From: Amoebophrya sp. A120
Lineage: Eukaryota > Protista > Dinoflagellata
Assembly: GCA_905178155.1 (NCBI GenBank)
Contig: CAJINV010000003.1
Location: 5,091,700 to 5,155,699 of the forward strand
Length of the DNA stretch: 64,000 bases
Reading direction: 5' to 3'
The notes under the pieces are model-generated. The model saw only the letters and a program-made list of their open reading frames with translations, had not been told where the DNA came from and searched no databases. A program made the translations under genes and the position numbers. This document shows, piece after piece, positions 1-59,123 of the stretch (position 1 is its first letter; the number at the start of each line of letters is the position of its first letter).

Positions 1-256
1 ATTCTGCACCTGCGGAACGTACTTTATTGTCATTGCGATGTATTTGCGATGATTCTTTTTCTTTCTCCTGTGCTGTAGCGGATTAGAAACACCTCATGAG
101 GGAGAAAAGCTCCCAGATTGATGAGTCTGACAAGAGCGGGGTAACAAAATAAAAAAAGAGGTCCTCGGGGGACCTCTTGTCCCCCCGGCCGGGCGGACAA
201 GAGGTCCCCTCGTTTTGCTGCCGGAGCGTCCGGCACGCGGAGTTCCCCCCCCCCCN
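1..256 (+). repeat. Identical copy of 7796-8050 (end of a PPR-like exon, intron, left arm of the MITE), ending at an N
   Basis: Matches 7796 onward base for base (offset 7795) until the poly-C run and the single N at 257. Confidence 0.9.
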
Positions 257-10379: not shown

Positions 10380-10882
10380 AATTTACGTAAATTGCTCGGG
10401 TCGTATCAATGACTTTCATATCTTGCGCGAATTTCGGACGATCAGTGTCGTTCCATCATAAAAACCATTATCATTTTCAATGTACGCACGTAGCGCTATG
10501 TAAAAATAAGATGCTTCTAAGAAACTTTACTCAATAGATCAAAAGCGAAAGCCTCGCTTGCTTTTTTTTTTCCTGCTGCGCCCTGGCGGACGGGCTTGAT
10601 TCGATGCCTTGGTGTTCTGTTAATCAGCGAAGGGAGTTTTGTCTCAAAAAGCAACTGAACCCAACGCACAGCAAGAATTTACTTGCAGGCTCCTGCTAAT
10701 GATCGAAGTGTTAGTGTGAGCCGCTACATAATCACGCTGCAATGTTTTGTGCGCCGCGTCACTGCTAGCCAAGTGAGTTCGTTTCATGTCGTGAAAACAA
10801 CTTCGGTGTACTATGAAAAATATCTTCACTCGTGCAACACCTTCGTTCTAGAAGAAGTAGAGATAACTCACCGTTTCGCAGC
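10380..10882 (+). repeat. Contiguous A+B segment whose upstream copy is split (258-529 and 5767-5987)
   Basis: Aligns directly with both upstream pieces; only ~17 bp separate A and B here. Confidence 0.8.
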
Positions 10883-33536: not shown

Positions 33537-36500
33537 ATGTCCGCGGTCTCCTCGGGTTTGCGCGAGGGTTACGATGTTGGGCAGTGGGGAAGTTGGCGGT
33601 CCCATTCCGTCTTGCTTCACGAAGCGGTCGCGGAGCTCAGTTGGGGCGAGAAGGCAGCGGCGCTGCTAGAGGTTTTCCGCCGCCACACCAAGACGAAGAA
33701 GGGCTATCTGTCCCGCACGGAATTTCACGATCTGCTGCGTCGGTACCCGTGCTGTGATGCCAATTACTTCGATACGTTTTTCGAGCTCTTCGACCGGAAC
33801 CAGGACGACTTTGTCAACGAGTCAGACTTTCTCGCCGGTATGCTCGCCGTTTCGCCGGGCACCCCGCACAAGGTGGGCCCGGAGTCCCCCGCGGGCCAGC
33901 TGCGCATGCAGTTCATTTTTCTGTACTACGACTACAATCGCAACGGCAAACTCGAGGTCGAGGAGCTACGACGCCTGATCGAGCACCTGTTGCGCATCCG
34001 CGGACAGTATCAACTGCAAAAGTGTCTGGGTCTGGAAGAATGCAACTTGTGATGCTGCATTTGGATGTCTAAAAAATTTGTGTTGCATGAGCAGCAAAGG
34101 GAGTGCAATTTTTGCTACGGGAAGAGGGCATTTGTCATGCGGAATAGGCATCAAGAAGGTCTCAAAAAATCTGTGATGCTAGGGCATGCACAACAGACAT
34201 CATGGCCCATGCAAAACGTGCATGACAAGTCTCAGAAATTTCCAGACCCAGACATTTTTACATTTGATAGACAGGATACGGCCTCTGCGGACCGCGACTC
34301 GCAGGCACTGCACGCACTGGGGACGGGCAACGAGGTGTTTGGGAACCAGTTCGGGTTCCACGCCTTTTTCGACGCCTCCGCACAGAAAATGCTGAATGGG
34401 ACTTCGCAGCTTCTGCGCACGCAGCGCTGCCTCGCCGAAGTGATTCGGCAAGCAGAGAGCTTCCACCAAAGCGGTCAGCACGAAGTGGTGGCAACCAAAG
34501 CGCTCTCCGCACTCCAGCGCGCGCCCGGCTCTCCGATCGGGATGCCGCGCGGCAAGCTGGGGGCGAGCGCCGTTGCTGGCTCGGTCTCCGCGCTGCAGGC
34601 TTCTTCACCCATATTGCCGCAGCCGGCAGCCCCGGAAACAGGCATTTCCGCGTCGGTGTCTGGAGGAGTACTGCGCGACGGGAAGGCGGGCGCCTCTCTT
34701 CTCGGTGCTTCCGCGGCATTAGCGGCTTCTGTGGATCACGTGGATGCTGGCAAGCAGGTTGCATCGACCTCTGATAGCCCACTTCTCGTATCATCGTCAG
34801 CTCGCGGCAAGCAAAGACCCGATGGCTCTGCTTCTGGTGGGGGGGCTTCTCAACTCATCTCGCAGGAGAGCACCCCGTCCGCCAGCTCCCGCACAGCTGC
34901 ACTGGATGTGGCACGCACGCAGCAGAAAACAACGCCAAGTACCACTACCAAGGCAGGACCAACATGTCCGATCGGCGGAGTGTCTACTAGTCCCTTGCTG
35001 CGGCGCCCCAATAGCCCCTTCAGCTTGGGAACAGCGGTGCTCATGCAGCAGCAATTGCAGGACCAGCAGCCGAGCGGCGCGCAAGGCATTGCAAAACAAA
35101 AGTTGCCTGGACAGCATCACGCTGCCACGACTTCGCCGACAAACAAACCGTTCGCATGGCAGGGCCAGCACAGCAATTACTTCGTCGAACCCGCCACGAA
35201 GTCAGCTGTTTGCCCGACCGAGTCGGCTCTTCAGCACGCGCTTGGTACAGGACAGCAGGGTGGCGGCAGCTCTAGCAGCACCTCGCCGCGCGGAGCCAGC
35301 GTGCGCGGCGTGCAATCCGTGGGCGGGGGAGGGCAAGGGCAAACAACTACTTCGGTTCTAGAAGACGACGACGGCCCCGTGTTGCGACAACCAAGTCACC
35401 AGCGACGGCAGCCGGCTTTTCACTGCTCTGTGGATACTTCACACCCACCTGGGAGCTTTGTCCACCGGAGGAGTACCGACCCCAATCAGTTCAACAAGCA
35501 CGCGGTCCGCGGAGCGCCCCCGCCCGCGTACAACTCACTTTCAGCAGATGATCCGGACAACGCGGTCTCGTGGAACACACCTGAGTACTTTTGGAAAGAA
35601 ACTGTGCTGCTTGCTATTTGATATCAGTCCATCAAAGTTGTATAAAAAGGAGAGCCTCGTCCTGCTATTGCTACAAGGCCGCAGCTTATGTCGCGTAGTG
35701 GGAGGGTGAACGAGTGGACAGGGGGGAAAGAAAAACGCCAGAGGATGGGCAAGGGAAAAGGTTTCTGAAGCAGGGCGGGGCCAAGCATCTGCGCCACTTC
35801 TTGTTGAAAGAACCAAGGCGGAGCGTCTTGGCGCCCGTGGTTCCCGTCGTTGTGCGAGCGCGAGGACCCCGCCCGCATTGGAAGCGCGCCCGAGGTTGCA
35901 GGCCTTAGGCCCGACAACGCAAAGGCAAAGCGCGGCAGCGGGCGGGCGCCAGTGAACGGGGGAAGGAAGCAGGAGAACACCCCGCGCCATGCGCGGCGCC
36001 TGCGCGTGACGCCCCGCNNNNNNNNNNNNNNNNNNNNNNNNNNNNNNNNNNNNNNNNNNNNNNNNNNNNNNNNNNNNNNNNNNNNNNNNNNNNNNNNNNN
36101 NNNNNNNNNNNNNNNNNNNNNNNNNNNNNNNNNNNNNNNNNNNNNNNNNNNNNNNNNNNNNNNNNNNNNNNNNNNNNNNNNNNNNNNNNNNNNNNNNNNN
36201 NNNNNNNNNNNNNNNNNNNNNNNNNNNNNNNNNNNNNNNNNNNNNNNNNNNNNNNNNNNNNNNNNNNNNNNNNNNNNNNNNNNNNNNNNNNNNNNNNNNN
36301 NNNNNNNNNNNNNNNNNNNNNNNNNNNNNNNNNNNNNNNNNNNNNNNNNNNNNNNNNNNNNNNNNNNNNNNNNNNNNNNNNNNNNNNNNNNNNNNNNNNN
36401 NNNNNNNNNNNNNNNNNNNNNNNNNNNNNNNNNNNNNNNNNNNNNNNNNNNNNNNNNNNNNNNNNNNNNNNNNNNNNNNNNNNNNNNNNNNNNNNNNNNN

Positions 36501-39500
36501 NNNNNNNNNNNNNNNNNNNNNNNNNNNNNNNNNNNNNNNNNNNNNNNNNNNNNNNNNNNNNNNNNNNNNNNNNNNNNNNNNNNNNNNNNNNNNNNNNNNN
36601 NNNNNNNNNNNNNNNNNNNNNNNNNNNNNNNNNNNNNNNNNNNNNNNNNNNNNNNNNNNNNNNNNNNNNNNNNNNNNNNNNNNNNNNNNNNNNNNNNNNN
36701 NNNNNNNNNNNNNNNNNNNNNNNNNNNNNNNNNNNNNNNNNNNNNNNNNNNNNNNNNNNNNNNNNNNNNNNNNNNNNNNNNNNNNNNNNNNNNNNNNNNN
36801 NNNNNNNNNNNNNNNNNNNNNNNNNNNNNNNNNNNNNNNNNNNNNNNNNNNNNNNNNNNNNNNNNNNNNNNNNNNNNNNNNNNNNNNNNNNNNNNNNNNN
36901 NNNNNNNNNNNNNNNNNNNNNNNNNNNNNNNNNNNNNNNNNNNNNNNNNNNNNNNNNNNNNNNNNNNNNNNNNNNNNNNNNNNNNNNNNNNNTGGCTTGC
37001 AAAATATTCCGACTTGCAAAATATTTCGACTTGCGAAATTTTTTGGCTGGCAAAATATTTCGACTTGCGAAATTTTCTGGCCTGCAAAATATTCCGACTT
37101 GCAAAATATTTCGACTTGCGAAATTTTTTGGCTGGCAAAATGTTTTGCGCTGCGAAATATTTCGAGGTGCGAAATATCTTGAGTTGTGAAATATTTTGCG
37201 TTGCAGAGTATTTCGCTTTGCGAAATATTTTAAGTGGCAAAACATTTCGCGTTGCAACATAGCCGGGAGCTGCTGGGCGATGGGAGCCGGGCGATGAAGG
37301 TCGGCAATCGAGCGATGGGAGTTGGGAACCCGTGCTTTCTGCTCTCCCCGTGCCGCCCGCTTTCAAAGCTGCAAAAACGGGGGAAGCGGTTTCTTCGGGG
37401 GGTTGATGTTGCGAAAAATTTTCTGGTCAGAATAGTTTCCGAGGGTGGAAAAAGATTCTGAGTTGCAAGATATTCCGACATCCAAAATATTTTGCCTCGC
37501 AAAGTATTAGTTTCGAAATATTTTGAGTTGCAAAATATTTTGCGTTGCAGAGTATTTTGATTCGCAAATTATTGCGAGTTGCAAAATATTTTGCGTCGCA
37601 AAATAGTCGGGCGATGGGCATTGGGCGATTGGAGTTGGGCGATGAAAGTTGGGAGCTGGGCGATGGGGATTGGGAAGTGGGCGATGAAAGTTGGGAGCTA
37701 GGCGATGGGAGTGGTGGCTAGTTTGGCGATGCGAATTGGGCGGTGGGCGGTGGGCGATTTCGCAAATCGCGAAACTTTTGGGACGTTTGAAAACTGTAAA
37801 AAAATTTTCGGCGTGGACGATTTTCCTCCCCGTCGCAAAATTTTAACTTCCGCAGCTCAGCAATAGGAGTTATATGCTTTGTTGCAGCTCTATTTTAGCT
37901 TGCCAGAATACTTATACTCAAACTCATCTAGAAGTTTCGTTTCCCTTTGTTCATCTACTGTAGGGCCATCGCGCTCCGGATCGTGCGGAAGGTGATGGAA
38001 CTGAGCAACGACCCAACGTTCGAGTGGCAAACGCGCCCCTCGCTGGTGACCGCGGAGGAGCTGATGGAGCTGTGCGACTCCGTGTTCGAGAAAATCTCGG
38101 AGGAGAACTCGCTTGTGCGTGTCGAGCTGCCCTGCCGCGTGTACGGGGACATCCACGGGTATGGAACTGTCAGGATCGAAATTGACAAAGTCGAAAAATT
38201 TGTGATGCATAAAATGCATGACGCGAAATACGTGTGTTGCAGAGCGGGCAAGTGAGGCCGATTGTGGGCCTGTTTGGGTTTATTGCTCGAGCTGCTAAAG
38301 CAGCATGAGAGAATCAGTCCTCTTTGCCTAAACAGCATTACAAACTGGATTTAGGCACCGCCAGAATTTGTGATGCGCCATTTAGAAACTGGGTTCGAAC
38401 TGGAATCCATTTTATGCATGACAAATCATTTCGCTTTTGTCAATTTCGATTCTGACACTTCCATAACGGGCAGCTGCCGGACTTGCTGCACTTCTTCAAC
38501 GCCTTCTCGTGGCCCGACAAGCGGCGGGGCGACATCTTTGCGATGAACTACATTTTCCTCGGGGACTTCGTGGACCGGGGCAATTACTCCGCCGACGTGG
38601 TCACTCTGCTGTTTGCGCTGAAAGTGCTCTACCCCAAGAAGATCTACCTCGTGCGCGGCAATCACGAGGACCGGTTGATGAACCAGAACTACGGATTTCT
38701 GCAGGATTGTCACTTCCTCTTCCCCGGCCCTGCTGTGGACACAGCAGGAGGTGGTGGGGAACAACTGCATGGAGAAGAGAAGGAAAACAATAACGCAACC
38801 GACGCCAGCAACGCGGAAGAAAACACCGTCGGGTAGAAACAAATAGTTGGGGTTGAAGATGCCTTGCCTTGTATACAGGCGGAAGTGCAGCTGCAAGGTT
38901 TTTTTGTTCGGACTCTCGCAAGAAGTAAAGAAATCGAAAAATATACGAATCAGGTTTCAGGTGTGGGAGCGCGTCAACGATGCGTTTGAATTTCTACCCA
39001 TCGCCGCACTGGTGGATGACCAGGTACTGTGCATCCACGGTGGAATCGGGGATTCGATCCACAGTTTGGACGACCTGCGCGACATCCCGAAGCCGATCAA
39101 GATCTCTCCCGAAATCACCGAGGAAACCACCCGGCAGGACAAAATCGTGTTGGACGCGCTTTGGTCGGACCCGACAGATAATGACTCCGTGCTGGGCGTC
39201 CACCTGTCCCCCCGGGGCCAAAACACCTGCCGCTTCGGCCCCGACCGGGTGCACGACTTCAATAAGCGGAACAACCTCAAGATGATCATTCGGGCTCACG
39301 AGTGCGTGCAGTATGGGTAAATAAAAGTGCTGGAAAATTTTGATGCTGCACATGAATGCAACTCTGATGTCCTACCAAGCGTTGTAATACCTAGATTGAT
39401 ACCAGCGCCGCGCCTTCATCTCTTTACGTAATAGATGTGTTGTTCGAAGTTTTCTTTAATATTTCCACTTCTTGGAGGACGTCGATGAAATCCATTCGCG

Positions 39501-39747
39501 TTTTTGTTCACATCATTACAGCTACGAGTACTTCGCAAACGGCCAGTTGTTGACCGTTTTTTCCGCCACGAACTACTGTAACCAGTACAATAACGACGGC
39601 AGCATGGTGGTGCTCATCAAGAATCCCGACGGTTCAGTCGCCGAGCACGCACAGGTAATTCGCTCGGGTGCCGCAGACACGGCCCACGGTTGGGCCCCGG
39701 AGCAGTACCGGGACCCATCGCCAATGCGAGGGAATTCTGCATGTTGA
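33537..39747 (+). CDS. EF-hand-containing PPP Ser/Thr phosphatase (EFPP-like; BSU/PPKL-type catalytic domain)
   Basis: EF-hands DRNQDDFVNESD and DYNRNGKLEVEE. Catalytic motifs GDIHGQ, GDFVDRG, RGNHE, HGG, LWSDP, RAHE and FSATNYC. Exons 33537-34007, 34275-35584, 37964-38159, 38471-38832, 38954-39316, 39522-39747. Confidence 0.88.
34008..34269. mobile_element. TIR introner, family A (262 bp), opposite orientation to the 11415 copy
   Basis: TSD gacag. Interior aligns with the reverse complement of 11415-11676. Removal gives RGQDTASAD. Confidence 0.92.
36018..36991. other. Assembly gap (N run) inside phosphatase intron 35585-37963
   Basis: Run of n bases. Confidence 0.99.
36992..37760. repeat. 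Two interleaved degenerate tandem arrays (gcaaaatatttcgactt-type and tgggcgatg-type)
   Basis: Many ~18-bp units with a near-palindromic aaatattt core at 36992-37260 and ~37400-37605. gggcgatg/ttgggag units at ~37265-37330 and ~37608-37760. Confidence 0.85.
38160..38465. mobile_element. TIR introner, family F (306 bp), splitting the GDIHGQ motif
   Basis: TIR tatggaactgtcaggatcgaaattgacaaa / tttgtcaatttcgattctgacacttccata. TSD acggg. Removal gives GDIHGQLPDLL. Confidence 0.95.
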
Positions 39748-41123: not shown

Positions 41124-44100
41124 ATGGTGACACAGAAACAAGAGCAAGCACCGTCAGTCGAGAAAAAGCCCGCGATTCCGCTGGGCCAGCTTCCGTGGGG
41201 AAGTTCGGAAGAAGAAGAAGGGCTGCAAAGTCATTCCGCCCGGGGCATGACGCTGCGGCAACATGAAGAGCAGGTCGAGGCAGAAGACAAAGCCGCACGG
41301 AAGCTGCAGGCTGTTCACCGGGGGAACAAAGACAGGCAGCGCGTGGAGCTGATGAAAGCCGGCGACGTGAGCCCGGCAGAGAGCGCGAATTCCGTGCACA
41401 GCGGGGTCTGGCATTTGTCGCACCAGCACGAGGAGCAGCGACTGGGGGCCGCTGCCACCAAGCTCCAGGCCGTGCACCGGGGCAATCAAGACCGGCAAAG
41501 GGTGGAGCTGATGAAGGCCGGGGATGTGAGCCCGGCGGAAAGTGTCGGATCCGGCCACAGCGGCGTTTGGCACATTTCGCACCGCCACGACGAGCAGCAG
41601 CGCGTCGAGGCGACTGCCGCAGTAAAGATCCAGGCCATCCACCGCGGTAACCAGGATCGCGCAGAGCTGGGCAAAAAGCACGATGCCGCAACGCGTATCC
41701 AGGCCGTACGCAAGGGGAACGTGGCACGCAACCAGGTCGATTTCATGAAGGCCGGAGCCTTCAGCGGAGCGGAGAGCGTGACTTCCCAGCACTCGGGGAT
41801 CTTCCACCTCGACCACCGGCACGAGGAGCAGACGCGCGCAGAGACCGCTGCAGCCCTGCAGATCCAAGCCCTGCATAGAGGAAACCGGGACCGAGAGGAC
41901 TTGCGACAGCAGCAAACCGCGGCGGCGCGCATTCAAGCGGTGCACCGCGGGAATGCAGTGCGCGCGGATATCCAGGAGCAGCATGAAGCCGCCAGCCGCA
42001 TACAGTCCGGGTTCTTTCGTAGCCGGAATATTAAAGATGCCACTGAAGCATCAGAAGCGAAGGGAACCGCTGGTCTGCGGAGAGATGAGCCGAGCGAGTC
42101 CGCCGATGAGATGGAGGTTCCGGACGAGGTGAAAATGGAAAGGTCGGACGCACCAACAACTGCGGAGCACGAGGCTGCGTCGAAAATCCAAGCCATCCAG
42201 CGCGGAAACGCGGCGCGGGCGGAGCTACAAGAGAAACAGGATGCCGCAGTACGAATACAAGCAGCGTACAAGGGCAATGTTGCCCGAGCGGAGCTCCTGG
42301 AACAGCACGAGGCTGCATCGAAGGTCCAGGCTGTGTACCGAGGTAACGCAGTGCGAGCTGAGATTCAGGAACAGCATGAAGCTGCAGCGAAGGTCCAGGC
42401 TGTGTACCGAGGTAACGCTGCGCGAACAGGCTTGCAGCAGCAGAAAGACTTTAGTGCCACTACCTCTAGGGTAAAGGCGGAGGCTCAAGTAGAGGGGACA
42501 CTTGCAGCGGATCCGGCGAACGAGGAGAAGCAGCAGGGCATGGTAGTGTCAAATATGCCCACCGGAAGCAGTGCGGAGCATGAGGCAGCCGTGAAAATTC
42601 AAGCAATACAGCGTGGAAACGCAGCGCGTGCAGACCTACAGGAGCAGCAAGATGCCGCAGTCAGGATACAGGCAGCGTACAAAGGTAACGTTGCGCGCGC
42701 TGAGATTCAGGAACAGCATGAAGCCGCAGCGAAGGTTCAGGCTGTCTACCGAGGTAATGCTACGCGCGATGAGATTCAGGAACAGCATGAAGCTGCAGCG
42801 AAGGTTCAGGCTGTGTACAAGGGTAATGTTGCCAGGGCCGAGCTTCAGGAGCAACACGAGGCAGCGGCAAAGATCCAGGTGGTCTACAAGGGGACCGCGG
42901 TGCGAGCGGATGTGCAGGAACAGCACGAGGCAGCCGAGAGGATTCAGGCGGTCTATAAGGGCAACGCAGTTCGTGCGGATTTACAGGAACAGCATGAAGC
43001 AGCCGCAAAAGTGCAAGCCGCGTATCGAGGGAATGCTGTCCGTGCGGAGCTGCAGCAAAAGCAGGCAGTTGTGGCTCAAGAGGCTCAACAAGAAGATTTA
43101 AGCGCACCGCAGTCGAGCATGCCGCTCGAAGAGAGTTCTGCTCTCCGAGAGCAGCACGATGCCGCTGCGAAAATTCAGGCTGTGTATAAGGGAAACGCCG
43201 TGCGTGCCGACCTGGGGGAACAGCACGAAGCTGCGTCGAAATTGCAGGCCGCGTATCGCGGAAATGTCGCCCGAGCCGAATTGGAAGAGCAACACGAAGC
43301 AGCCGCGAAGATTCAGGCCGTTTATAAGGGCAGCGCAGTGCGTGCGGATCTGCAGGAACAGCATGACGCAGCAGAAAAGATTCAGGCGGTGTACAAGGGA
43401 AATGTAGTGCGGGCGGACCTTCAAGAGCAGCACGAAGCCGCAGCGAAAGTGCAGGCGGTCTATAAGGGAAATCTTGCCCGAGCCGAGCTGCAGGAGCAAC
43501 ATGAGGCGGCCGCAAAGGTGCAAGCTGTTTTTAAGGGTAATGCCGCTCGAGCCGAGCTCTTGGAGCAGCATGAGGCCGCCGCGAAGGTGCAAGCGGTCTA
43601 TAAGGGTAATGTTGCTCGAGCCGAGCTTCAGCAGCAACATGACGCAGCAGAAAAGATTCAGGCTGTGTATAAGGGAAACGCAGCACGAGCGGAGCTTCAA
43701 GCGCAAGACGACGCTGCCGCGAAAATTCAAGCTGTGTACAAGGGGAGCGTCGCCCGTGCTGATCTGCAAGAACAACACGCTGCCGCCTCGATGATTCAAG
43801 CAGTATATAAGGGCAACGCTTTGCGTACCAATCTCGATGTTCGAATAAAAGATGGCGTGGTCACAGAGCGCCCCGTAAGTGAACAGAGGACACAGGCAGG
43901 CACTGATCCCGAGCAGGTGAGCCATCAAAATAGAGCCCTCAGCGAGCAGGACACTACATCACCAGCCTCAGCTTACTCAATAAGAGATCAGAGAATACGG
44001 AGAGGGGAGGGAGAAGCCCTCAGCGCAGAGGGGATCGATGACATGTCCGTGCGCGCGTCGGCGGCGGAAGCGGAAGAAGCCACTTCTTCAAAGGGCAGCC

Positions 44101-47719: not shown

Positions 47720-50700
47720 ATGAGTGCAGATGACAATCTCTGGGGCGCATGGCTGGATGTCCGCGATCGGGACATTGTGAAGGAGAATGCAGACGCGGCG
47801 TTTGGGCGGCCCCGGAGTGCGCCAAGCACGAAGACAGCGGCTACGCTGGCGCGCCCAAGCTCCGCCGCGGCATGGTTGCAGCGGAGGCAATCCGAGTTGC
47901 AGCGGCGCCGGGACGTCGCAGAATACACTGCCTCCCCGGGGGGCTCTCCGCTCCTCGGAGCGGAATACAATTACACGTCCGGTGGCAGCAGCAGCAGTAC
48001 GAATCCCAATCCGCAGCTGGCTGGTTCTTCTGCAACAACCGATGGACAACAAGTCGCAGCGCCGCGGGTGCAAAGTGCGACAGCACGTCCACCACATGGG
48101 CATTCAAGCCACCGAACCACAGGAGCTAGTACTGCCAACGGAGCAGACGAGGAAAATGTCCTGACTGCGCAACCACGCCCGAAGACGGCCATTGGGATTC
48201 CGTCTCGGTTTAAGGTGAACACACACCTGATAGACTTTTCGCGCAAGGGCTTGTCTCCCTCCTTCCGAACGGGCACCGGAGTAGGCGCAGGAGGAGCAAC
48301 AGCGAACAAAATCGGCAACGGCACCGGCCCGAGCCGCGGCGACGAAGACAACACGCCGCTGGGTGGGGCACGAGTTCTTGCGTCAAGAACCAGTGACCTT
48401 GCGGCAGCAGACGCGACCACCGCCAAACCGGCGATGTCGCCCATTGTTGAGGAATCGTCCATCCTCACTGCAGGGGAGGAAAATTTTTTGGAGAAGAAGC
48501 GCATTATGTGCGAGAAAAGTCCGAAAAAGAGTATTTTCTCGATGCTGAACATAGAGCCGGCCGCTGCGCAGCCTGAAGTCGTAGAAAAACCGAGCTCGTC
48601 GCCGGGAAATAAACAATCCATGCCGCGGACCCCAAGCCGGCTCCCCTCGTCGCCCTCGTCGTCACCTCTCGCCATTGCGCGCCAAGGCAGCACCGCGACC
48701 CTCGAGGTGGCCGCGGGTGAGAGCGGCGACGCGGACTCGGCGCAGCGGACCGCCGGGCCTCCCCGCAGCGCCAGCGCCTCGCCCTCGAAGCAAAAAAGCG
48801 GGGTCGAGTCGCCGCAGCAGATCATGGAGCGCTTGCAGAAGCGGTGGCGCGCGTACCTCGAGGGCATCGCCGCCGAAGAGGAGGCTCGGCAGCGCAAGGA
48901 GAACTGGAAGCGGCGCATGGCCGAGGTGGAGAGCAATCGGATGTCCGCACACGACCGTCAGAAGTTCTTCAACGAGATTCGGTACAAGGCGCAACAGGAC
49001 TCGCACTTCCACGGGCAGTATCAAATGTAAAAATGTCTGGGTCTGGAAGGTTGGAACTTGTGATGTGCATTTCACAACACAGAAAAATCTCTCATGCATA
49101 GGCGGCAAAAGGTGCCCATTTCCTGTCACCAAAATGGGGGATTTGTGATGCGGATTAAGCAATGCGGAAGCTTCTCGAAATCTGTGATGCTAGGGCTTCC
49201 ATGACAGGCATTCTGTGTCATGCAAAAACAGCATGACAAAAATCTGCATTCTTCCAGACCCAGACATTTTTACATTTGATAGGCAGTTCATTCTCGCGCA
49301 GGCCACGGAAATGCTGCACCAAAATATCAAATGTAAAGATGTCTGGGTCTGGAAGAATTCAGGTTTGTCATGCTTGTCCGGCATGGCTCTTAAATCTGTC
49401 ATGCACGTTACCCAAGCGCTCCGTTTTTCTGTGATGCAGCGGCGCAGTTTGTCATGCAGAATAGGCAACACCTAGGAACTCAGAAACTTGTCATGCTGAG
49501 CCAGCATTTGTAGCCTCATCATGAGACGCCACCCAGCATCACAAGTTTCCAGACCCAGACATTTTTGCATTTGATACAAAACGCGGAGCAACCACTGGAC
49601 GCCGCGCTGCGCTACCGGCTTCAAACCCTGCTCGAAAAGGCGGCTCAGGTCACCCACGGCGACAACGTGTCCGCACTGCTGCTGCTGGCTGCTCTTGAAG
49701 AAGAAGAGAAGAACTATACCAAGGCACGGCAACTGCACGCCACGATCGTCCAGAAAGCAAAGGAGGGAAACGAAATTGCGCTCACTTGCCTCGTGGAGGT
49801 TGCGGAGTTTCGGGAACGCCAAATACAACGCGACGCCGACAACCGCCGGAAACGCGCACGAAAAAAAAGCATGATGAAGGTTCTACTTCGTGTGTTGATA
49901 TATTCTGCTCCTGGAAACAAGTACAAGTAGAACAGCAAAGTACCAAATAAAAGCTTTGACCTTACTGATAGAATAGATGCTAGGACCGGATTGATTTTCC
50001 TATCCTGTCAATACTCTCGTTGCGGGTCGTACTCTTCGTTTGAAACTTACTTCTAGCCGCACTTACAGCTGCATAGCATAGAGTCAAAATCATGTTCAGG
50101 TTGTACCGAAGAAAAAATCGACAAATCGAGGGACAGCAAACGTCATCGCGGAGCTAGCGATGAAACGCGAGGAGGTTGAGCAGCCCATTCTGAAGTACAC
50201 GGTGCAGCAGGGCTTCCTCGAGCCCATGCGCAAGGCGCTGCTGCGACTGACCGCACAACACCCGTCCGACAAGCGGCATCTGGACAGCCTGAAGCGCAAG
50301 ATTGCGCAGGAAAAGGCAAAGGAAAACCGGGAGCATGCGCAATCTCTGGCCACGCTGAAGAAAATTTCGGGCGGTTTCTTCATGCAGGGCGCGGCAAAGA
50401 CCGACAACAGCGAAGTTTCACACATGGAGAAAATGCGGCTCAAGCTGCTACAGTCCACAAAGCTCGCGGTGGATGTGAATACCATGATGCAAAGCACCAG
50501 TTCCGTATCTAGGAAAAAACAACCATCCCCATCCATTTTATGCATGACAAACAGAGGACTGCGTGCATGCTTTGCATGACAAATTGGATGGGGATGGTTG
50601 TTTTTTTGTGGATATTCCGACGAGGAGAAGCGGCGAAGAGGCGCGCGAAAAAAGCCACTGGTAAGCGAGGACACCGTGGTGCAGTGGATTCCGCGCGAAT

Positions 50701-52917
50701 ACTATCAGAATGAGAAGGTGGCGTATCGAAGACAGATCGACCGCGGCTACGATGAGAAGTACAGTTTTTTACTGCAAATTTCTCACACGCATCGTTGCTA
50801 CAACGCCGGTTCGGTTGTGCTTGCAGCTCCGCCTCCCTCATGGGGTTTTGTAAGGTTTCTATAAGTAAAATTTTCTTGAACTTGATTTCATCTTCGCACG
50901 GCATTGATTTGTTCTCTCCACCGCGACAGGTTCGACCAGGAGGTAACACTGAATCATGCTGGCGTCATCACTTTTCACACGCGAATGGCCCGGGCAAACT
51001 TTGGACAGCAACGTATTACAGTGAAAAGTGCCCCCCACCCCCAAAGTTGCAAAAATTTGTGCTGCGAAGTTTCCAAATGAAAACTTTTTGTCATGCATGA
51101 AAGGAGGACGAATCTTTCTGATGCAGAGTCTAGTCGTGTTTCGCATCGCTTGCATGACAAGCACCGCTCTTCCTGGGATCTTTTGCAATACAAATTTTTG
51201 CTATTCACGATCGGAAATCTGTGATGCTGATACATGCAAGAGGGCGAATGTTTCATTTGGAAAGGTTTGCAATACAAATGCTTTCAAGTTCGGGGGTGGG
51301 GGCATTTTTCATTGTAATACAACGACGCCCACAAAAGAAAAAATCGCGAGGCCAGTCGCTGCTGAAGAAGGCGTCCACGCTATCCTATGTAAAAACGTAC
51401 CCACCCCATAGTTGTCATGCAATTCTGCATGCCAAAAAAGTAAAAGTTTCTCATGCGGAGCCCTATGAGAAGCATTTTCTATTCGTGTTTTGGAATTTGT
51501 GATGCTAGAATCAGTATGGTAGGCTAGCTCTGTAATGCTTCTGAGCTAGCGAAACAGGATTACACTACGAGGACAAACTTGTCATGCCAAACGACCAAAG
51601 CTGTGTGATTTGTCAAGCAGACTTGACTCTGGTGTGGGTACGTTTTTACTCAGGATACACGCAAATGCTCGCAACGGGGTACCTACACTTCGTATTTTTT
51701 TAGCTGCAGTGTTGTTTTCTCATTCTTTCGCACCATTTTTTCGCGGACCTGCTTTAATTTTTTAGTTGAGTCAGTCCATTTTCGTTTCACTCACATTCCG
51801 TGCCGACGCACACTGCGTACATGGAACAAATCGAAACAGTGCTTTGGTAGAAGATACTGCGGCAAACGTGCGCGACGGGCTAGATTCTCCGAAGGAGCCA
51901 CCGGAGGCCGGAAGGTTGCACGTGGAGCGTCCGCAGTCGACACTGATGAAACGACGACCGGACAGCGCGCCCTACCTGCGCACCTTGCACACATGGGACT
52001 CGAGTAAAGGTTTCGACGTTTTCTCGATGATGCACGGCAAATCCGAAGACTACAATCACGCCGTCCGAAGCGCCGCGACGCTCGTCAGTCGGCGGCACAA
52101 GCGCGCCGCCAAGCAATCCGCGAGTGTTTCGCCCGACGGCCGCAACAGTGAAACGTCGTCCCCCACCTTATCTCGCTCGCCCTCGGTGTCCCCCAAGCGT
52201 AGTGAAAAAGAAGAGCCAGGAGCTGCAGCACCAAAGGTCGTGGGATCGAGTTCCACTTCGAAGGAAAGCAACGCCATGACGCCGACTGTCCGCCGGGTTT
52301 ATTCTGTAAAGGAGAACTCATTCCGCTCGCTCTCTGCAAGTCCGTCAAAGCAACAAAAGGACAAGAAAGGTACAGACAATGTGATTGGTCGGGTGCGTGC
52401 TGTTTTGAGCTTCTGCTTCTTCCATTTTCTGAGAAAAATGAATGCATAGTTTTTATCGTCCGAAAGCTTGTTGCGCACTTATTACCTCGCATCGTGCTCA
52501 GAACTTCTTCTAAATGAGGAGCACGCGGCGACGGCTTATGTTGTCATCACCCGCGTGCCAGATGCGCAAGAGGATAGACATTTAGAAAAATATCGATCCT
52601 TGTAAATTTGCAACTACTCCACAGGCGAGCACCACCACGCCACGGGCCGCAGTTTGCTTGAGAGTAGCTTGAAGCTTGCGAAGCTACCGCCGAAGTTGGA
52701 TCCGGACGAAATAGATACCTACCCCGACCTGGATGTTGCGAAGCTGTTCCCCATAGAAACGAAGGTCCAAAACCACGATCCACGACGAGTTCGCCGTTCC
52801 TACGGCCTCGTTCCCACGGAAACGCCAGACCCTCCTGAGGACGACTTTGCGTTGCGAGCGCGACCACCAGAGCGGGCATCACCAGAGCACTGCTTCCGCA
52901 CTGCTGCCCAAAGCTGA
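47720..52917 (+). CDS. Large hypothetical protein interrupted by five TIR introners and four canonical introns
   Basis: Inferred exons 47720-49018, 49287-49324, 49582-49879, 50100-50505, 50620-50758, 50930-51013, 51325-51380, 51663-51678, 51840-52387 and ~52625-52917 join without stops. No domain recognised. Confidence 0.65.
49019..49281. mobile_element. TIR introner, family A (263 bp)
   Basis: TIR tatcaaatgtaaaaatgtctgggtctggaag / cttccagacccagacatttttacatttgata. TSD ggcag. Removal gives HGQFILAQ. Confidence 0.93.
49325..49576. mobile_element. TIR introner, family A, second subfamily (252 bp), opposite orientation to the 13982 copy
   Basis: TSD caaaa. Removal gives LHQNAEQPL. Interior aligns with the reverse complement of 13982-14234. 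Confidence 0.92.
50506..50614. mobile_element. Minimal TIR introner, family D (109 bp)
   Basis: TIR tatctaggaaaaaacaaccatccccatcca / tggatggggatggttgtttttttgtggata. TSD ttccg. Removal gives STSSDEEKR. Confidence 0.9.
51014..51319. mobile_element. TIR introner, family E (306 bp)
   Basis: TIR tattacagtgaaaagtgccccccacccc / ggggtgggggcatttttcattgtaata. TSD caacg. Removal gives FGQQRRPQKK. Confidence 0.9.
51381..51657. mobile_element. TIR introner, family B (277 bp), opposite orientation to the 11749 copy
   Basis: TIR tatcctatgtaaaaacgtaccca / tgggtacgtttttactcaggata. TSD cacgc. Interior aligns with the reverse complement of 11749-12027. Confidence 0.92.
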
Positions 52918-54084
52918 TTCAGCAAACACCCTCTCCGCGATCGGGTGTGTGGGGTGTCCTTTCGTCCTTCTCGTTTTTTTTTCACTTTCGTGATCTACAA
53001 GAGCCTCTCTCTATCGAGTAATTCCATGATAGCGCATTTGCTTTTTGTCCAAATTATACGTCGCTTTTCCATCCTCGAGACTGGTTCTGCGCAGCGAGCA
53101 GAGCAATCGTATTTTGCGAGTTGATTTTTTGCGATACGACTGCAGAATGTAGGTTTTTTGGCCTTCGTGCTGTGATCAAGACAAGTGAGCTAGTACGAAG
53201 ATGCAGCCTGCTCCTGTACTAAATTTGTGTTTTGTAGTCTCGTGCAGCCGACCAACGGTTCTAAATTTCCATGCAATAAATTGTTTGCCTATACTTACTT
53301 TGTCTTTGATGGTCCCCCAAGGGGCTTTGGATAGCGTGTTCATTTGGGTGCAACAACACTGCATTACTTATATCAATAACGTGCGGGCCTTGCATCCGAC
53401 CACCGACAAAGTTGTGTGATTGAGCGATCTATCAGCTTAGTCACTTTGAGAGGCAGTATGGCGTCAAGGCACCGCTTCGGCTATTGTCTCCGCACAAACG
53501 AGGGCTGAGTGTCGAAAACGTCTGAAAATCTTCTGTGGTACTAACTGAGAGGCATGCTCTGTAGACAGGACAAGCGGGAACGAGTGCAGCGCATCGTTCA
53601 GCGGGAATTGTGTTTTGAAGTTCTTTTGACCCGCATTGTGTGGTCTGCCCGCATTGTGTGGAACCTCAGTCGTTAGCTGCGCTTGTCGCTGCACTGAAAA
53701 ATACAAGCGTTTGGAAAAATTCGCGGGGCCGCACAGCAGCGAAGGAGCCAAGGAGTTGCGTCAAAGTACACGACCAAGTAGTGCGACGCATCCATCGATT
53801 GCACGGCAGAGACGAGCACTGTTGTCGCCCAAACTTCTCCGTCGGACGCTCCCTAAGAGGACATTGCGTAGTTCATCGGCTGCACCTGATGCTCTCACTC
53901 TTCGACACTGCTCAAGCACCGTTTTGATTCACAACCGGACCAAGAAGGCCGTGCGGCTTCGTCCCTGTGATTTAGATTAAAGCAGGGACCTGCTTCTCGT
54001 CGTGCACGGTACAACGGGAAGTGTGTGGCGGAAGATAAAAACTGTGGAAAAAGAACAAGCACCAGCACTGCAACTGGTACCAGG

Positions 54085-56969
54085 ATGGGGTGTGGCGTCA
54101 GCTCCAGCCAAAAGCCGGGCGACCTGCAGGTGCAGCAGTTGCGACGCCGACTAACGGTCGCACAGCTCGATAAGGTAGACGGACAGGAAAATGGCAATGA
54201 GGATGGCGCAGACGTCGAACGCGGTCTCTTGCAAAAGATATCGGATAAGAGTACTACAATTTATCTCAATCCATTATTTGCTAGCAAACAAAGACCACGA
54301 ACAAGATGGTGGTAGTTTATTCACCGAGCTGCACTATGAATGCGCGAATGCACGTATGCTCGGCAGCGTGCATTGATAATTACCTAGCGCGTGTTTTATT
54401 TCATTCGGGCAGCATCCATTGTAATCAATCCAACTCCGAGGTATCTTGGAAATCGCCGATGAATTGAGCAAAGTGCTAGACAATGCGGACAGCACAGAGT
54501 CACCGACAAAAAGTGCAAGCGGAAAGACACCGAAGAGGAGAGTCAGCATAGGTACTAAATCAATGATGAACGGACGATCTTTTTTGAAGCATCAGAGCGA
54601 AGACAAACTGGTTTTGCTGGGGAATGCAGCCGGTAGAGGTCCGCGCGCAGATGCCATATTACGGATTTTTCGAAAGGATGAACTATAGGGAGATGAAAAG
54701 CAACTACTGTGGTCACGACAGGCTCTGAGACAGACAAGAACGCCAACAAGCGACAGAGCTTCAAGAAGAAGGACGAGTACAGGATAGGAGACGACCTCGG
54801 CGAAGAAGAGATTCGTATCGGATACTCGTGCAGGAAAGGTTTGAAACCCGAGTCACCCAATCAGGATAGCTGGTTTGTCTTGCTGGTATAACTTCATATA
54901 GTCGATTTTTTGTTTTAGGATCGTCCCCTGCCGCGCCGGGGGTGTACATATTGGCTGTCGTTCCTGCCGCACCAACATCTACGGATGAAAAAAGAGCGTG
55001 AGGGACGGTCTGCGTGCTTCCTTATCGCGGTAGACAAAGAATTTGGTAGTTGCTGTGGATTTTGTAAAAAAGAATTCTGAAAAACATAAATCCCCAGCAA
55101 GAAAACGAACTTGGGATATACGGCGTTTTCGACGGCCATGGCGCTAAGGGGCACGATGTGAGCAATCTGGTGAAGTTGTACCTTCCCAAGCTCATCCTGA
55201 CCAGCGAAAAGTTTTCGGAAGCACCGGAGAGTGTGATGGTAAGTTGCTTCCATCGCATGCAGAACCTCATCCAGGCCCACGACCGCAAGGGCCTCCTGAA
55301 CGCCCAGCTCTCAGGGTGCACGTGCACCATCGTCGTTCACGACATGCGCGAGGACCGCCTCGTCGTTGCGCATGTGGGCGACTCGAGGGCAGTATTGGTC
55401 CGGAAAGAAGACGGGGGCGACAGGTCTTCAGTTCTTATCATTTGTTTTGCATGTCGTGCACGGTGCGGTTGTAACGATCTACTTTTGGCTTGTCACCTGC
55501 GGGTTCTTGGTTCATCTAATTACTCTGTGCGCTGGATCTGATGCACCATCGGTATCGGATATCATTGACTTTGATGATTTATGACAGGGTAATCGCTGAG
55601 GACTTGACCCGTGACCACAAACCCGACCTGAAGGAAGAACGAGCCTACATTGAGCGCAATGGTATGATGAAAGAAGTTTTTACTGCTTTCATCTTGAGTC
55701 GGTCGGGTGCCTCGTGCGTATGTACTTAGTAGAATACTTCTTCGCAAGTCAAACGATGAAGAATGCATCCTCCGCGGCGCTCAGATACTTTATACATAGA
55801 ATTTCACTGCATTATCGATCTGCAGGTGGTAGGGTAGCGTTTGACGGGTTCGCAAACCATCGTGTGTATGTGAAGAACGGAACCTACCCGGGTCTCAACA
55901 TGTCCCGCGCCCTCGGGGATCTCCTCGGGAGCACCAACGCGGGAATTAACAACACTCCCGAGGTGCGGGTGATCGACCTGCCCAGGAAGACGGGGGGTGC
56001 CCCCAATGGTTCAGCACTTTCTGCCGACGGCACCAGGGCCATTCTCCTGATCTGCTCCGACGGCGTTTGGGAATTCGTCTCCTCAAATCAAGCAAAAGAC
56101 TTCGTATTTTACTTTCTTCTGTGAAAAATCTCGCGTGGGCGTGGTCTAGTACTAATGGTTTGATGTTCGACAGGAATAGAACTACACGTACACGTCTTCA
56201 CGACGGACAACGTTTGATCACAATCTAACAGGCGATGCGGTTTGACGCAAGGCGTGCAAAGGATGCAGCCGAAACGCTGGCCAAGGAGTCTTGGGATCGC
56301 TGGATACATGAGTTATCGTGGAAGGCTTGAGGGCAGGAGAAACTGTTGTCTGGCCTTAATTGCTTTCTCTGAAATGCATGCTCTAGACTTGGACTACTTT
56401 TGCAACGAATTTTGAAATGACAAGTCTCCTTCTGCTAGGCATTGCCTACGCAGTAGGATCGGAACTCGAACTTGTTTTTTTCACAGCTTCAGAAAAGAGT
56501 GTCAGTTTCGGCAGAGCAAGTGTCAGCCAAATTTGACTTGCTCTCAAATTTTCCCAGAATACGAAGAGGGTGGCTGCGTGGTGGATGACATCTATCCTGT
56601 CGAAAAGCGACGATCCCACCCCAGACTTGTCATGCAGATTTGCATGCCCAGCAGCACGCGTCGTCTGACCCCCGATGGCAGTATAGTAATTTTCTAGCCG
56701 CTTTTCCTCGAGATTTGTCATGCTCTATTCAGCATAAGAAAGTGCGGCATGTGTGTATGATGCGGCTGAACTACCTCGGAACGACTGCCGTGCAGGTCCA
56801 AGTCAAACTTGTGTTAAAGTCACATAGTCTGTTTCTGCAGAGCCAAATACCTTGTCATGCAGCGAAGTTTCTGCATTTGTTTTGTTTAGCTGATTTTTAA
56901 ACATCTTTGCGGTGGAGTGGGTACGATTTCCGTCGCGATAACATTACCACATTGGTCATCTACATCTGA
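54085..56969 (+). CDS. PP2C/PPM-family protein phosphatase with predicted N-myristoylation/palmitoylation
   Basis: MGCGVSS start; motifs RKGLKPESPNQD, YGVFDGHG, SGCTC, AHVGDSRA, DHKP, GLNMSRALGD, ICSDGVWE and terminal VVDDITTLVIYI*. Multi-exon; the junction near 56310-56565 is unresolved. Confidence 0.85.
56593..56940. mobile_element. Diverged TIR introner (348 bp) splitting the PP2C DDIT motif
   Basis: Imperfect TIR tatcctgtcgaaaagcgacgatcccacccca / tggagtgggtacgatttccgtcgcgata. TSD acatc/acatt. Removal gives VVDDITTLV. Confidence 0.82.
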
Positions 56970-59123
56970 GGAATCTGAGGATTGTTGGAACAACAGTCAC
57001 TTGTAGGCCTTTCTAGTTACAAATTCAAATCCGATAAGAGAAGTATTCGACAATTTCTGCTTTTTGAAACGAATAGGGCAGGCAACACACCAGCCGCAAG
57101 TGCCGCAAGTCTTCGCGCTTTGTATGAATATAACAATGACGACCCGAGCGAGGCTTCTCCGTACTATGCCATCTTTATCTGTGTTGCCTCCTCCTTGTCG
57201 TTTACGATTGCCGACTGCGTATGATTAAATCAGTTTGCATCTAAATTTTCCCGCCTTCGCTTTACAACACTGAGCGCATCGGCCGCCATCAATCTGATGT
57301 CTGTGTGCGCGCGAGAGGGAAGAAGGCAAAGGTTGCAGCTTCTTTCTTCGCAAGTGCTCTGAGTCTGATGGTTGGCTTGGTGTGGTCAGTATCACCGATG
57401 GGTAGTACTCATGCAGTAATGACCTTTGATAATGATCGAATTTTTTAGAACCTCACTGTATTGCCACGGTGCCAGCTTCCTATTCCTTGCAATTGCGGCG
57501 TCCCTTACTCGCTTCTTTGCTTCTGCTTCATCCGAGAGCGGGGGAACAAAATCACTGTGCTTGGCAAACTAGTACATCCGTGCTTGTAAAGCTACCATCA
57601 CTTCTTGTTGTAAGCTAAGTCTAAGTTTCAAGTTTCGTTTCCTACTGTATCTTGCAGAATGAAGATTTGATCTATGTTTCTTTTGCTTGGAAAATTAATG
57701 TCAGTGACTCTGTTTCTTAACCGCGGGGAGTGAGAGGGAAGGTTTCAACTACACTCCACCGGCCACAAACTACGTCATGCTTCTACAGATATTCAAAAGT
57801 GCAACGAACCTGTCCGCGACAGCATTCCTCTACACTCTTGTTATTTGATGTCCTAAAACGTACGCCAAGATAATTTTTTAGCTTTGAAAACGGACTCCGG
57901 GCCAAACGCAAGTCAGTATTGCAGGACAGGAGCACCGACACCCACCCCATATATATAATTTAGCGGCTAGTTTTTTCACTACCACTACAAGCGCCGAGGC
58001 CCAGTAGAAGATTGATCCATATGAACTACATGTGGAAACCCGCCCCCGAAGATATGCTTACCGCATAATCGCTTTCTGCGGTGCGTCTTGTAAAGTCCAG
58101 GCCAAAACGAAAACAAGTCTTGGGGTGGACGTGGGTCGGCCGTTTCTCATGATTGCAAAAAAGGTTTTGCGGCCCGAAACAAATCGACTATAGCACAAAT
58201 GAATGTACACTACGTTGAAAAATGTACTGCCACTCACTCGTTGGAAAATTCACTCAAACAACAAATTCGAACGAGGTGCCCACGAAGAACAAGCTAGCGG
58301 CGCCGCATATTGACACGATGGGTTTTTCACGAGAAACTATTTTTTCGGATCGGGGAACCAGCGGGAGTCGCAAGAACATATTGGTATTGCGTACTACAGA
58401 CGATGCCCTGAGTGAGGAGGTAGACGTACCCTTGAAGAGGTTCATCACGGAGGCGTGGGCGTTCTAGAGCGTATCCACTTGCAAAATTATATGTATACGG
58501 CTGCAGTGCCGTGGTTCTTTGAGGCTTTTCAGGAGCGCACGCACTCACCGCCATCCAAAAGATGATCGTGAGCTGTAATATTAAGACCAAACGAGTGACT
58601 TTCAATGTTGTGGAGTTTGTAGAACGCAACGAAGTAAGTTTACACAAGAATGACGGGCCTATTTTCACCGTTTGGAAATCGTGGCCTCGTGGCACTGGGG
58701 GTCGTGCTCCAGCCCGAGTTGTCTCCGCTCGCGCAGGGTCGCCTGGGTGATGTGGAAGTGCAGGTCAATAGCGGAGCAGACACCGAAGCCTTCGATGCTG
58801 CAGTACCATTCAGAAAAGGCAAAGAAGCAAATGCAAGTGCTTGTCGTGTAGCCTTCAGCAAAACAGAATTGATGTATGGAGTGCTGAATGAATGGCCATG
58901 AGAGGCAATAAGTATTCATTCTCGGGCTATCGATGTATCATTTTTGCACTTAGCCAATTCCTTTTCGTTTGGTACCCGGACACCGACGCGTTTCTGGAGA
59001 CGTATCATAATAGAAACTGTTCCCGGTCCTACTCCTATCTATTTAGCTTGAAGATCCCGCGAAGGAGCGCTGCATCGCTCATATACGTCCTGCGACAGAA
59101 GTTGATGTGGTTGCGGCCCACTC

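What the first reader, a model, noticed from the sequence alone, without database searches (positions are those of the whole stretch)
38155..38470. Introner inside the invariant GDxHG metal-binding motif: best test of precise excision
Seen: the TSD acggg is the His-Gly codon sequence of GDIHGQ, no register gives GT-AG (best is GT...GG), and the rest of the phosphatase is intact. The 56593 element similarly splits PP2C DDIT. Established: these residues are essential for catalysis. Inference: excision must be nucleotide-exact, which argues against pseudogenisation or sloppy cryptic splicing.
Basis: partly seen in the sequence, partly recalled or inferred. Interest (0 to 1): 0.75.

Follow-up and report, generated by a model that had tools for sequence, protein, structure and literature searches.

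The report
Transposon intron cut exactly without GT-AG
A 306-base mobile element interrupts the active-site motif of a phosphatase gene of the marine parasite Amoebophrya A120 and is missing, to the base, from an assembled transcript; this kind of intron is already described in this genome, but decayed copies nearby suggest the cut likely falls at a fixed place, one base before and four bases after the element.

Summary
Confirmed. Window 38160-38465 is a 306-bp TAT...ATA element with 37-bp inverted ends and a perfect 5-bp duplication, ACGGG, inside the His-Gly codons of GDIHGQ; none of its 6 registers is GT-AG. A probable-RNA contig skips exactly 311 nt together with two GT-AG introns; a DNA-like run keeps the element. 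The spliced model equals the public Amoebophrya sp. A120 protein P0001, 975 of 975 residues. The class (A120 introner elements) is published (PMC7789003), so the site itself is already known. It is not the best test of the mechanism: a perfect duplication hides the cut position, and two in-frame cryptic GT-AG pairs would also keep GDIHG (not used by the contig). Better tests lie in the PP2C gene: a decayed element at 56314-56561 is cut uniquely at 56313-56565 (TT..AA), and the 56593 element keeps the right-hand copy's last base. Both fit intron = last duplication base + element + first four duplication bases, giving donors NTAT like host GTAY. One decisive case only. Likely machinery: a relaxed major spliceosome (inferred).

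The parts
38160..38465 (.). Non-autonomous DNA transposon (MITE-type introner element), TAT...ATA ends, 37-nt terminal inverted repeats, 3 copies of an internal motif shared with other elements; no ORF over 63 codons
   Evidence: many other copies in DNA-like run X1 diverge at 38159/38160 (13+33 contigs) and 38465/38466 (26+13)
38155..38159 (+). Left copy of the 5-bp target-site duplication ACGGG (His-Gly codons of GDIHG)
38466..38470 (+). Right copy of the duplication
38159..38469 (+). Non-canonical intron, 311 nt; length shown by RNA contig, the GT...GG register inferred from the PP2C elements
   Evidence: joint 38154>38466, 5 letters ambiguous; register
33537..39747 (+). Host gene: EF-hand PPP-family Ser/Thr phosphatase, 975 aa; exons 33537-34006, 34274-35584, 37964-38158, 38470-38832, 38954-39316, 39522-39747
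   Evidence: identical to P0001; Pfam Metallophos 653-898 and EF-hands; best solved relative BSU1, E 6.8e-75; last four exons on one RNA contig
34008..34269 (.). Second TAT...ATA element in the same gene, duplication GACAG
38833..38953 (+). Canonical GT-AG intron on the same transcript contig
39317..39521 (+). Canonical GT-AG intron on the same transcript contig
56313..56565 (+). PP2C non-canonical intron, TT...AA, 253 nt, junction unambiguous; contains decayed element 56314-56561 with duplication TGAGT against CGAAG; fixes the 4|1 register
   Evidence: joint 56312>56566, 0 letters ambiguous, in X3, X4, X5; record arithmetic closes; arm duplex -24.1 against -13.4 +/- 2.6, 0 of 300 shuffles
56593..56940 (.). 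PP2C element in the Ile codon of DDIT, duplication ACATC against ACATT; the transcript keeps the right-hand T, which excludes a cut at the element's first base
   Evidence: joint 56587>56941, 4 letters ambiguous; registers listed
54085..56970 (+). PP2C phosphatase gene, six GT-AG introns and two non-canonical introns (end coordinate approximate)

Best explanation
The insert is a non-autonomous DNA transposon that is absent, with exactly one copy of its 5-bp duplication, from the assembled phosphatase transcript, and it is likely removed from the pre-mRNA by the host's major spliceosome cutting at a fixed distance from the element's ends. Shown: the element, its duplication, the 311-nt skip, the intact protein. 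Shown at one PP2C element and compatible at a second: the 5' cut lies one base before the terminal TAT and the 3' cut four bases after the terminal ATA. Inferred: the same 4|1 register holds at 38159-38469 (GT...GG) and for the class; NTAT is read as the host's GTAY donor with a free first base; pairing of the inverted ends brings the ends together, and the acceptor is set by distance from the terminal ATA rather than by an AG. As 1 + 4 equals the duplication length, an insertion at any sequence would be removed without a scar. Odds: exact removal from RNA 0.93; 4|1 register general 0.75; spliceosome as the enzyme about 0.65.
For: RNA-guess run X4: one 1718-nt contig skips 311 nt plus two GT-AG introns, 0 differences; DNA-like run X1 shows no such joint and has unique-depth contigs running from both flanks 27-28 nt into the element. 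X3, X4, X5 (one sample): 56312>56566 with no ambiguity, 56587>56941 with 4; DNA-like X2 spans 51632-57400 unchanged; contig lengths close exactly, 782 of 782 and 103 of 103. At 56313 the cut is 1 nt from a GT and 1 nt from an AG; all three nearby GT-AG pairs shift the frame. At 38469 an AG lies 4 nt on and is not used. Canonical donors in the window: 9 of 10 GTA (p 2.5e-5), 8 of 10 GTAY (p 0.07); only register 4 gives xTAY, in 14 of 14 elements (the 14 were chosen for TAT ends, so the point is which register, not the count). Last duplication base is G in 8 of 14 (p 0.03, post hoc). Related copies lie in opposite orientations, so the signal is likely in the symmetric ends. PMC7789003 Table S4: all 9 predominant A120 site types have T at +2, all 9 in A25 begin TT; 83 of 89 spliceosomal proteins found. 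Polarella class 12 uses the same 4|1 geometry with GC-AG (bioRxiv 2020.10.14.339549).
Against: The runs are only guessed to be RNA. Contigs drop rare forms, so the error rate is unknown; 44 joint rows were not shown. The decayed 56314 element does not fold end to end at equilibrium (z -1.5; arm pairing about 0.01) and lacks the internal motif; the 56593 arms are not significant as a 30-nt duplex (50 of 300 shuffles). Published annotated sites are mixed and include many AG/AC ends (Dataset S2 of PMC12130899), which fits a mirrored register or aligner bias as well. [quoted passage not shown] Nothing here tests the enzyme. Two elements (11749, 49019) have a GC-AG option in another register.
Confidence: 0.55

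Rival explanations
1. Same exact RNA-level removal and fixed spacing, but by a separate, non-spliceosomal hairpin-guided nuclease and ligase, as proposed for Euglena nonconventional introns.
For: No fixed terminal dinucleotides; strong end-to-end hairpin in young copies; neighbouring GT and AG ignored; U1 not detected; Euglena uses fixed spacers of 3 and 5-6 nt around paired CAG/CTG, with circular products and unknown factors (PMC12501133).
Against: The observed register reproduces the host donor at +2 to +4; decayed elements with weak pairing are still cut exactly; tunicates handle non-GT-AG introns with a modified spliceosome (PMC13326754 abstract).
Confidence: 0.28
2. Exact net removal but a variable register: the machinery slides within the duplication, and the 56313 junction is a private, later-adapted case or reflects RNA editing of one base.
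For: [quoted passage not shown]
Against: At 56313 all three duplication differences fall on the intronic side of a 4|1 cut, and 56593 agrees; editing would need separate events at two sites; annotated mixtures are expected when a perfect duplication hides the cut.
Confidence: 0.12
3. The element is excised from DNA in the transcribing life stage (like ciliate internal eliminated sequences), so the RNA lacks it.
Against: Two DNA-like runs keep the elements with no skip joint listed; ordinary transposase excision would leave both duplication copies and a frameshift; the dividing stage gives rise to the spores, so excision would be inherited (recalled life cycle).
Confidence: 0.03
4. Insertion-inactivated gene or rescue by cryptic GT-AG splicing.
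For: Retention gives a stop; two in-frame cryptic GT-AG pairs keep GDIHG.
Against: The contig shows 311 nt, not 305, 284 or 315; all catalytic motifs intact; 71% identity over 440 aligned residues to the A25 orthologue.
Confidence: 0.02

Closest known systems
Introner elements (IEs) among the non-canonical introns of Amoebophrya sp. A120 (Farhat et al. 2021, PMC7789003; sections 10-12, 16, 32, 35, 36 and supplement part 3 read; figures not seen)
   Same: Same organism (P0001 named A120, 975 of 975 identical); inverted repeats starting TAT, 3-5-nt direct repeats, hairpin, non-GT-AG ends, RNA support, high copy number.
   Different: This copy lacks the A-run at about +11 of the published A120 motif. 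The paper leaves the border position unknown (Fig. 3 legend); here degenerate duplications point to a fixed 4|1 register.
Introner-like elements of Polarella glacialis, class 12 (bioRxiv 10.1101/2020.10.14.339549; passages read)
   Same: 5-nt duplication; donor made from the last duplication base plus the first base of the element; acceptor from inside the second copy; the same 4|1 split.
   Different: Polarella needs NNAGG so that GC-AG results; in A120 only 1 of 14 elements has a GT-AG register.
Euglena nonconventional introns (PMC12501133; abstract and sections 8, 12 read)
   Same: Short paired motifs at fixed, unequal distances from the cuts; no GT-AG; probable MITE origin.
   Different: Motif CAG/CTG with spacers 3 and 5-6 and a purine at the exon start, against TAT/ATA with 1 and 4; Euglena was tested genetically and gives circles; nothing of that is tested here.
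Fritillaria borealis non-canonical introns (PMC13326754 abstract; PMC11282704 section 6)
   Same: MITE-derived introns with inverted repeats and duplications, mostly non-GT-AG.
   Different: There the sites are a few fixed types (AG-AC, AG-AT) with a TAC target and duplicated U2AF; here the target sequence looks free.
IS3EU/GingerRoot DNA transposons (PMC10045372, passages read)
   Same: TA...TA termini.
   Different: 6-bp duplications there, 5-bp here; no transposase in the element or window to compare.

Membership tests
Amoebophrya A120 introner element | Intron supported by RNA with ends other than GT-AG | tested here: met
   311-nt joint in X4, no GT-AG register; the run is guessed to be RNA, and the same contig lacks two GT-AG introns
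Amoebophrya A120 introner element | Terminal inverted repeats able to form a hairpin | tested here: met
   37 nt; z -8.9
Amoebophrya A120 introner element | 3-5-nt direct repeat over the exon/intron borders | tested here: met
   ACGGG at both ends
Amoebophrya A120 introner element | Repeated in the genome | tested here: met
   964 contigs laid in X1, summed depth up to 71,032 on the element against 40-46 on the flanks (not a copy number), other flanks at both ends; no full-length second copy in the window
Amoebophrya A120 introner element | End motif TAT, seven loose bases, then at least three A | tested here: inconclusive
   TAT present at both ends; the A-run is absent at +11 in this copy but present in most other window elements
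Amoebophrya A120 introner element | Strain-specific position (empty in A25) | not testable with these tools
Major (U2-type) spliceosomal intron | GT/GC donor and AG acceptor | tested here: not met
   No GT-AG register at 38160; TT..AA at 56313
Major (U2-type) spliceosomal intron | Lariat with branch adenosine; dependence on snRNPs | not testable with these tools
   Only contigs held the locus; raw-read runs X9, X10 gave 0 and 7 partial reads
MITE / non-autonomous TIR transposon | Short, inverted ends, fixed duplication, no transposase | tested here: met
   11 of 12 strong elements have a perfect 5-bp duplication; longest stop-free frame 63 codons
IS3EU/GingerRoot superfamily | 6-bp duplication | tested here: not met
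   5 bp in all clear cases
Euglenid nonconventional intron | N3CDG...CH'GN5-6|R signature | tested here: not met
   Ends are N-TAT...ATA-N4
PPP-family phosphatase (host protein) | GDxHG, GDxVDRG, GNHE, HGG, RAHE motifs in a Metallophos domain | tested here: met
   75 of the top 80 homologues carry GDxHG, the other 5 align only downstream of it

The most novel reading that the evidence does not exclude
Amoebophrya A120 has a single hidden splicing code, N-TAT...ATA-NNNN: cuts are set one base before and four bases after the transposon ends, the spacers add up to the 5-bp duplication, and so tens of thousands of seemingly chaotic non-canonical introns are one class that is removed without a scar from any target sequence, by a spliceosome that has dropped both the +1 G and the terminal AG and may branch at the terminal ATA.
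Probability: 0.5. Interest if true: 0.75.

Novelty: already known. Interest (0 to 1): 0.45.

Why it matters
The site itself is an ordinary example of a published class and is already spliced out in the public gene model. What matters is the method it led to. How Amoebophrya removes more than 60% of its introns without GT-AG is open (PMC7789003), and perfect duplications hide the cut. Old copies with diverged duplications reveal it, so existing genome and RNA data can test one fixed rule across thousands of introns. If it holds, the reported variety of splice sites is largely an alignment ambiguity, part of the reported border editing may be misregistration, and the rule gives exact coordinates for lariat or circle tests that would separate a relaxed spliceosome from a new enzyme.

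Tried and rejected
No whole genome is held for this window, so no genome-wide count. No run is on record as RNA among the holders; X3-X6 are guessed. The metagenome scan returned 80 loci, best 78% identity; 12 of 12 checked read through the motif without an insert and none of the 80 matched the element, but these are distant relatives or probable transcripts and do not show an empty site in A25. The cryptic-site test was printed in the wrong frame and was redone; the first PPP model had a wrong start and was redone. A window-wide search for more decayed elements gave 166 candidate pairs; below the known elements the scores merge with chance (z about -4.6 to -2.6) and none was adopted; 56593 itself is not among the top 45. 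Elements 49019 and 49325 show no joint among the rows displayed: untested, not negative. A frame-openness test on both strands was uninformative. dN/dS was not computed (no A25 DNA). Assignment to a transposon superfamily failed; 19 of 58 A120 rows of Dataset S2 of PMC12130899 were read, most 'TIR DNA, unknown', and supplement files 13 and 14 were not searched. The Current Biology version of the Polarella paper is not held. Earlier scan notes on this genome or this sequence: none.

Full report
Observation. The insert is 38160-38465 (306 bp), begins TAT, ends ATA, has 37-nt inverted ends and is flanked by ACGGG on both sides. The duplication covers the last two bases of the His codon and the Gly codon of GDIHGQ. 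Removing the element with one copy takes out 311 nt in any of six registers, none GT-AG, one GT...GG. Retention, removal of the element alone, and the nearest GT-AG pair (38159-38473) all lead to a stop. The insert folds as one hairpin, z -8.9. A scan for TAT...ATA pairs gave 26 rows: 12 elements, 13 satellite pairs and 1 cross pair (the last 14 dropped), against 0-4 rows per control. With 56593 and 56314 the window holds 14; 42 of 49 hits of an internal motif lie in their 3,974 bases.

Host gene. A six-exon model from 33537 to 39747 gives 975 residues, identical to P0001, which NCBI labels Amoebophrya sp. A120. It has EF-hands and a Metallophos domain; the best solved relative is BSU1. Of the top 80 homologues 75 carry GDxHG, 69 as GDIHGQ; the other 5 align only downstream of the motif. 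The A25 orthologue is 71% identical over 440 aligned residues. So the public annotation already removes this element.

RNA test. Of 11 runs listed, none is on record as an RNA holder; four are guessed to be RNA. In X4 one 1718-nt contig covers 37964-40221 in four pieces with no other letters and no gaps, skipping 311, 121 and 205 nt; the last two are GT-AG introns, which marks the contig as spliced. X1 behaves as DNA: even depth through introns, contigs running from both flanks 27-28 nt into the element (short of the tool's 31-letter bridging mark), no 311-nt joint, and many other copies whose flanks diverge at the element's ends. X9 and X10 were no test. Its argument was not sufficient: two in-frame cryptic GT-AG pairs would keep GDIHG, and the contig uses neither.

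Where the cut falls. A perfect duplication hides this. In the PP2C gene (Pfam PP2C) three runs of one sample show six GT-AG introns and two others. The 56593 element has ACATC left and ACATT right; the transcript keeps the right-hand T, so the intron does not start at the element's first base. The second, 56313-56565, reads TT..AA with no ambiguity. It holds a decayed element, TAT at 56314 and ATA ending at 56561, whose arms pair better than 300 of 300 shuffles, while 0 of 10 canonical introns do (best 46 of 300); its duplication copies are TGAGT and CGAAG, and the transcript keeps left positions 1-4 and right position 5. The tool marks these joints 'between: not known' because the exon is short, but contig lengths close exactly: 782 of 782 in X3 and X4, 103 of 103 in X5. 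X2 spans both elements unchanged as DNA. A GT lies one base before this donor and AGs 8 before, 1 and 3 after the acceptor; all three pairings shift the frame and are not what the contigs show. Element 51381 is also removed with one copy (X3), and 50506, 51014 and 51381 together fit a 299-letter gap in X4 with 1 of 6 candidate GT-AG pairs for the intron between them.

Mechanism. Shown: exact removal in assembled transcripts; a 4|1 cut at one element, compatible at a second. Inferred: the same register at 38159-38469. It alone turns the element's TAT into positions +2 to +4 of the host donor, 9 of 10 GTA and 8 of 10 GTAY in this window, and G is the last duplication base in 8 of 14 (p 0.03, post hoc). 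Related copies lie in opposite orientations. I therefore favour a major spliceosome with a free +1 base and an acceptor set by distance from the terminal ATA, helped by pairing of the ends. Against: the decayed element is not predicted to pair end to end in the whole intron, U1 was not found, and no call tests the enzyme. The main rival is a Euglena-like separate system. In both, the spacers add up to a plausible duplication length (1+4 = 5 here, shown; 3+5 = 8 in Euglena, my inference from hAT elements, recalled, and repeated in unchecked scan notes).

Known work. PMC7789003 describes these elements in this genome: more than 60% non-canonical introns, 29,850 repeated ones in A120, TAT ends, 3-5-nt direct repeats, with the border position left unknown. 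Its Table S4 lists nine predominant A120 site types, all with T at +2, and nine for A25, all starting TT; this fits the register but is confounded by strand and aligner choice. Its figures S19-S23, which I could not see, may place the borders. PMC12130899 lists 58 A120 families with mixed annotated sites (19 rows read). Polarella class 12 has the 4|1 geometry with GC-AG. Two other Amoebophrya strains have canonical introns (PMC12005148 passages; PMC11453091 passages). Searches showed no paper stating a fixed register for A120; subscription journals are mostly not covered.

Verdict. Real feature, already known class, exact removal now shown in a probable-RNA contig. Interest 0.45, carried by the testable 4|1 rule rather than by this site.

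Noticed in passing
window 56313-56565: Unlisted decayed TAT...ATA element in PP2C, spliced TT..AA with GT and AG one base away; the best test of the register in this window.
   Followed up: yes
   Followed up: partly
window 4521-5009: Element carrying a nested insert of about 208 bp (4736-4943) between 19-bp direct repeats, with telomere-like TTTAGGG units.
   Followed up: no
window 7929-8310: A different inverted-repeat element with arms of about 119 nt and no TAT...ATA ends.
   Followed up: no
window 1-255 and 7796-8050; 257-351 and 10380-10474: Exact copies on either side of a single N at 256; possible assembly join.
   Followed up: no
window 55424-55587: Canonical GT-AG intron flanked by a 6-nt direct repeat in the same 4|1 geometry but without inverted ends; possibly a very old insertion.
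   Followed up: partly
window 35585-37963: Long canonical intron of the phosphatase holding a 975-N gap and a 17-bp satellite.
   Followed up: partly
window 13982-14234: The only one of 14 elements with a GT-AG register, and it is the 4|1 register.
   Followed up: partly
window 41931-43868: Coding tandem repeats of 69 bp (23 residues), IQ-motif-like by eye (label recalled).
   Followed up: no
window 50506-50614: Very short element (109 bp), almost all inverted repeat, sharing a 21-nt stretch with the 38160 element.
   Followed up: partly
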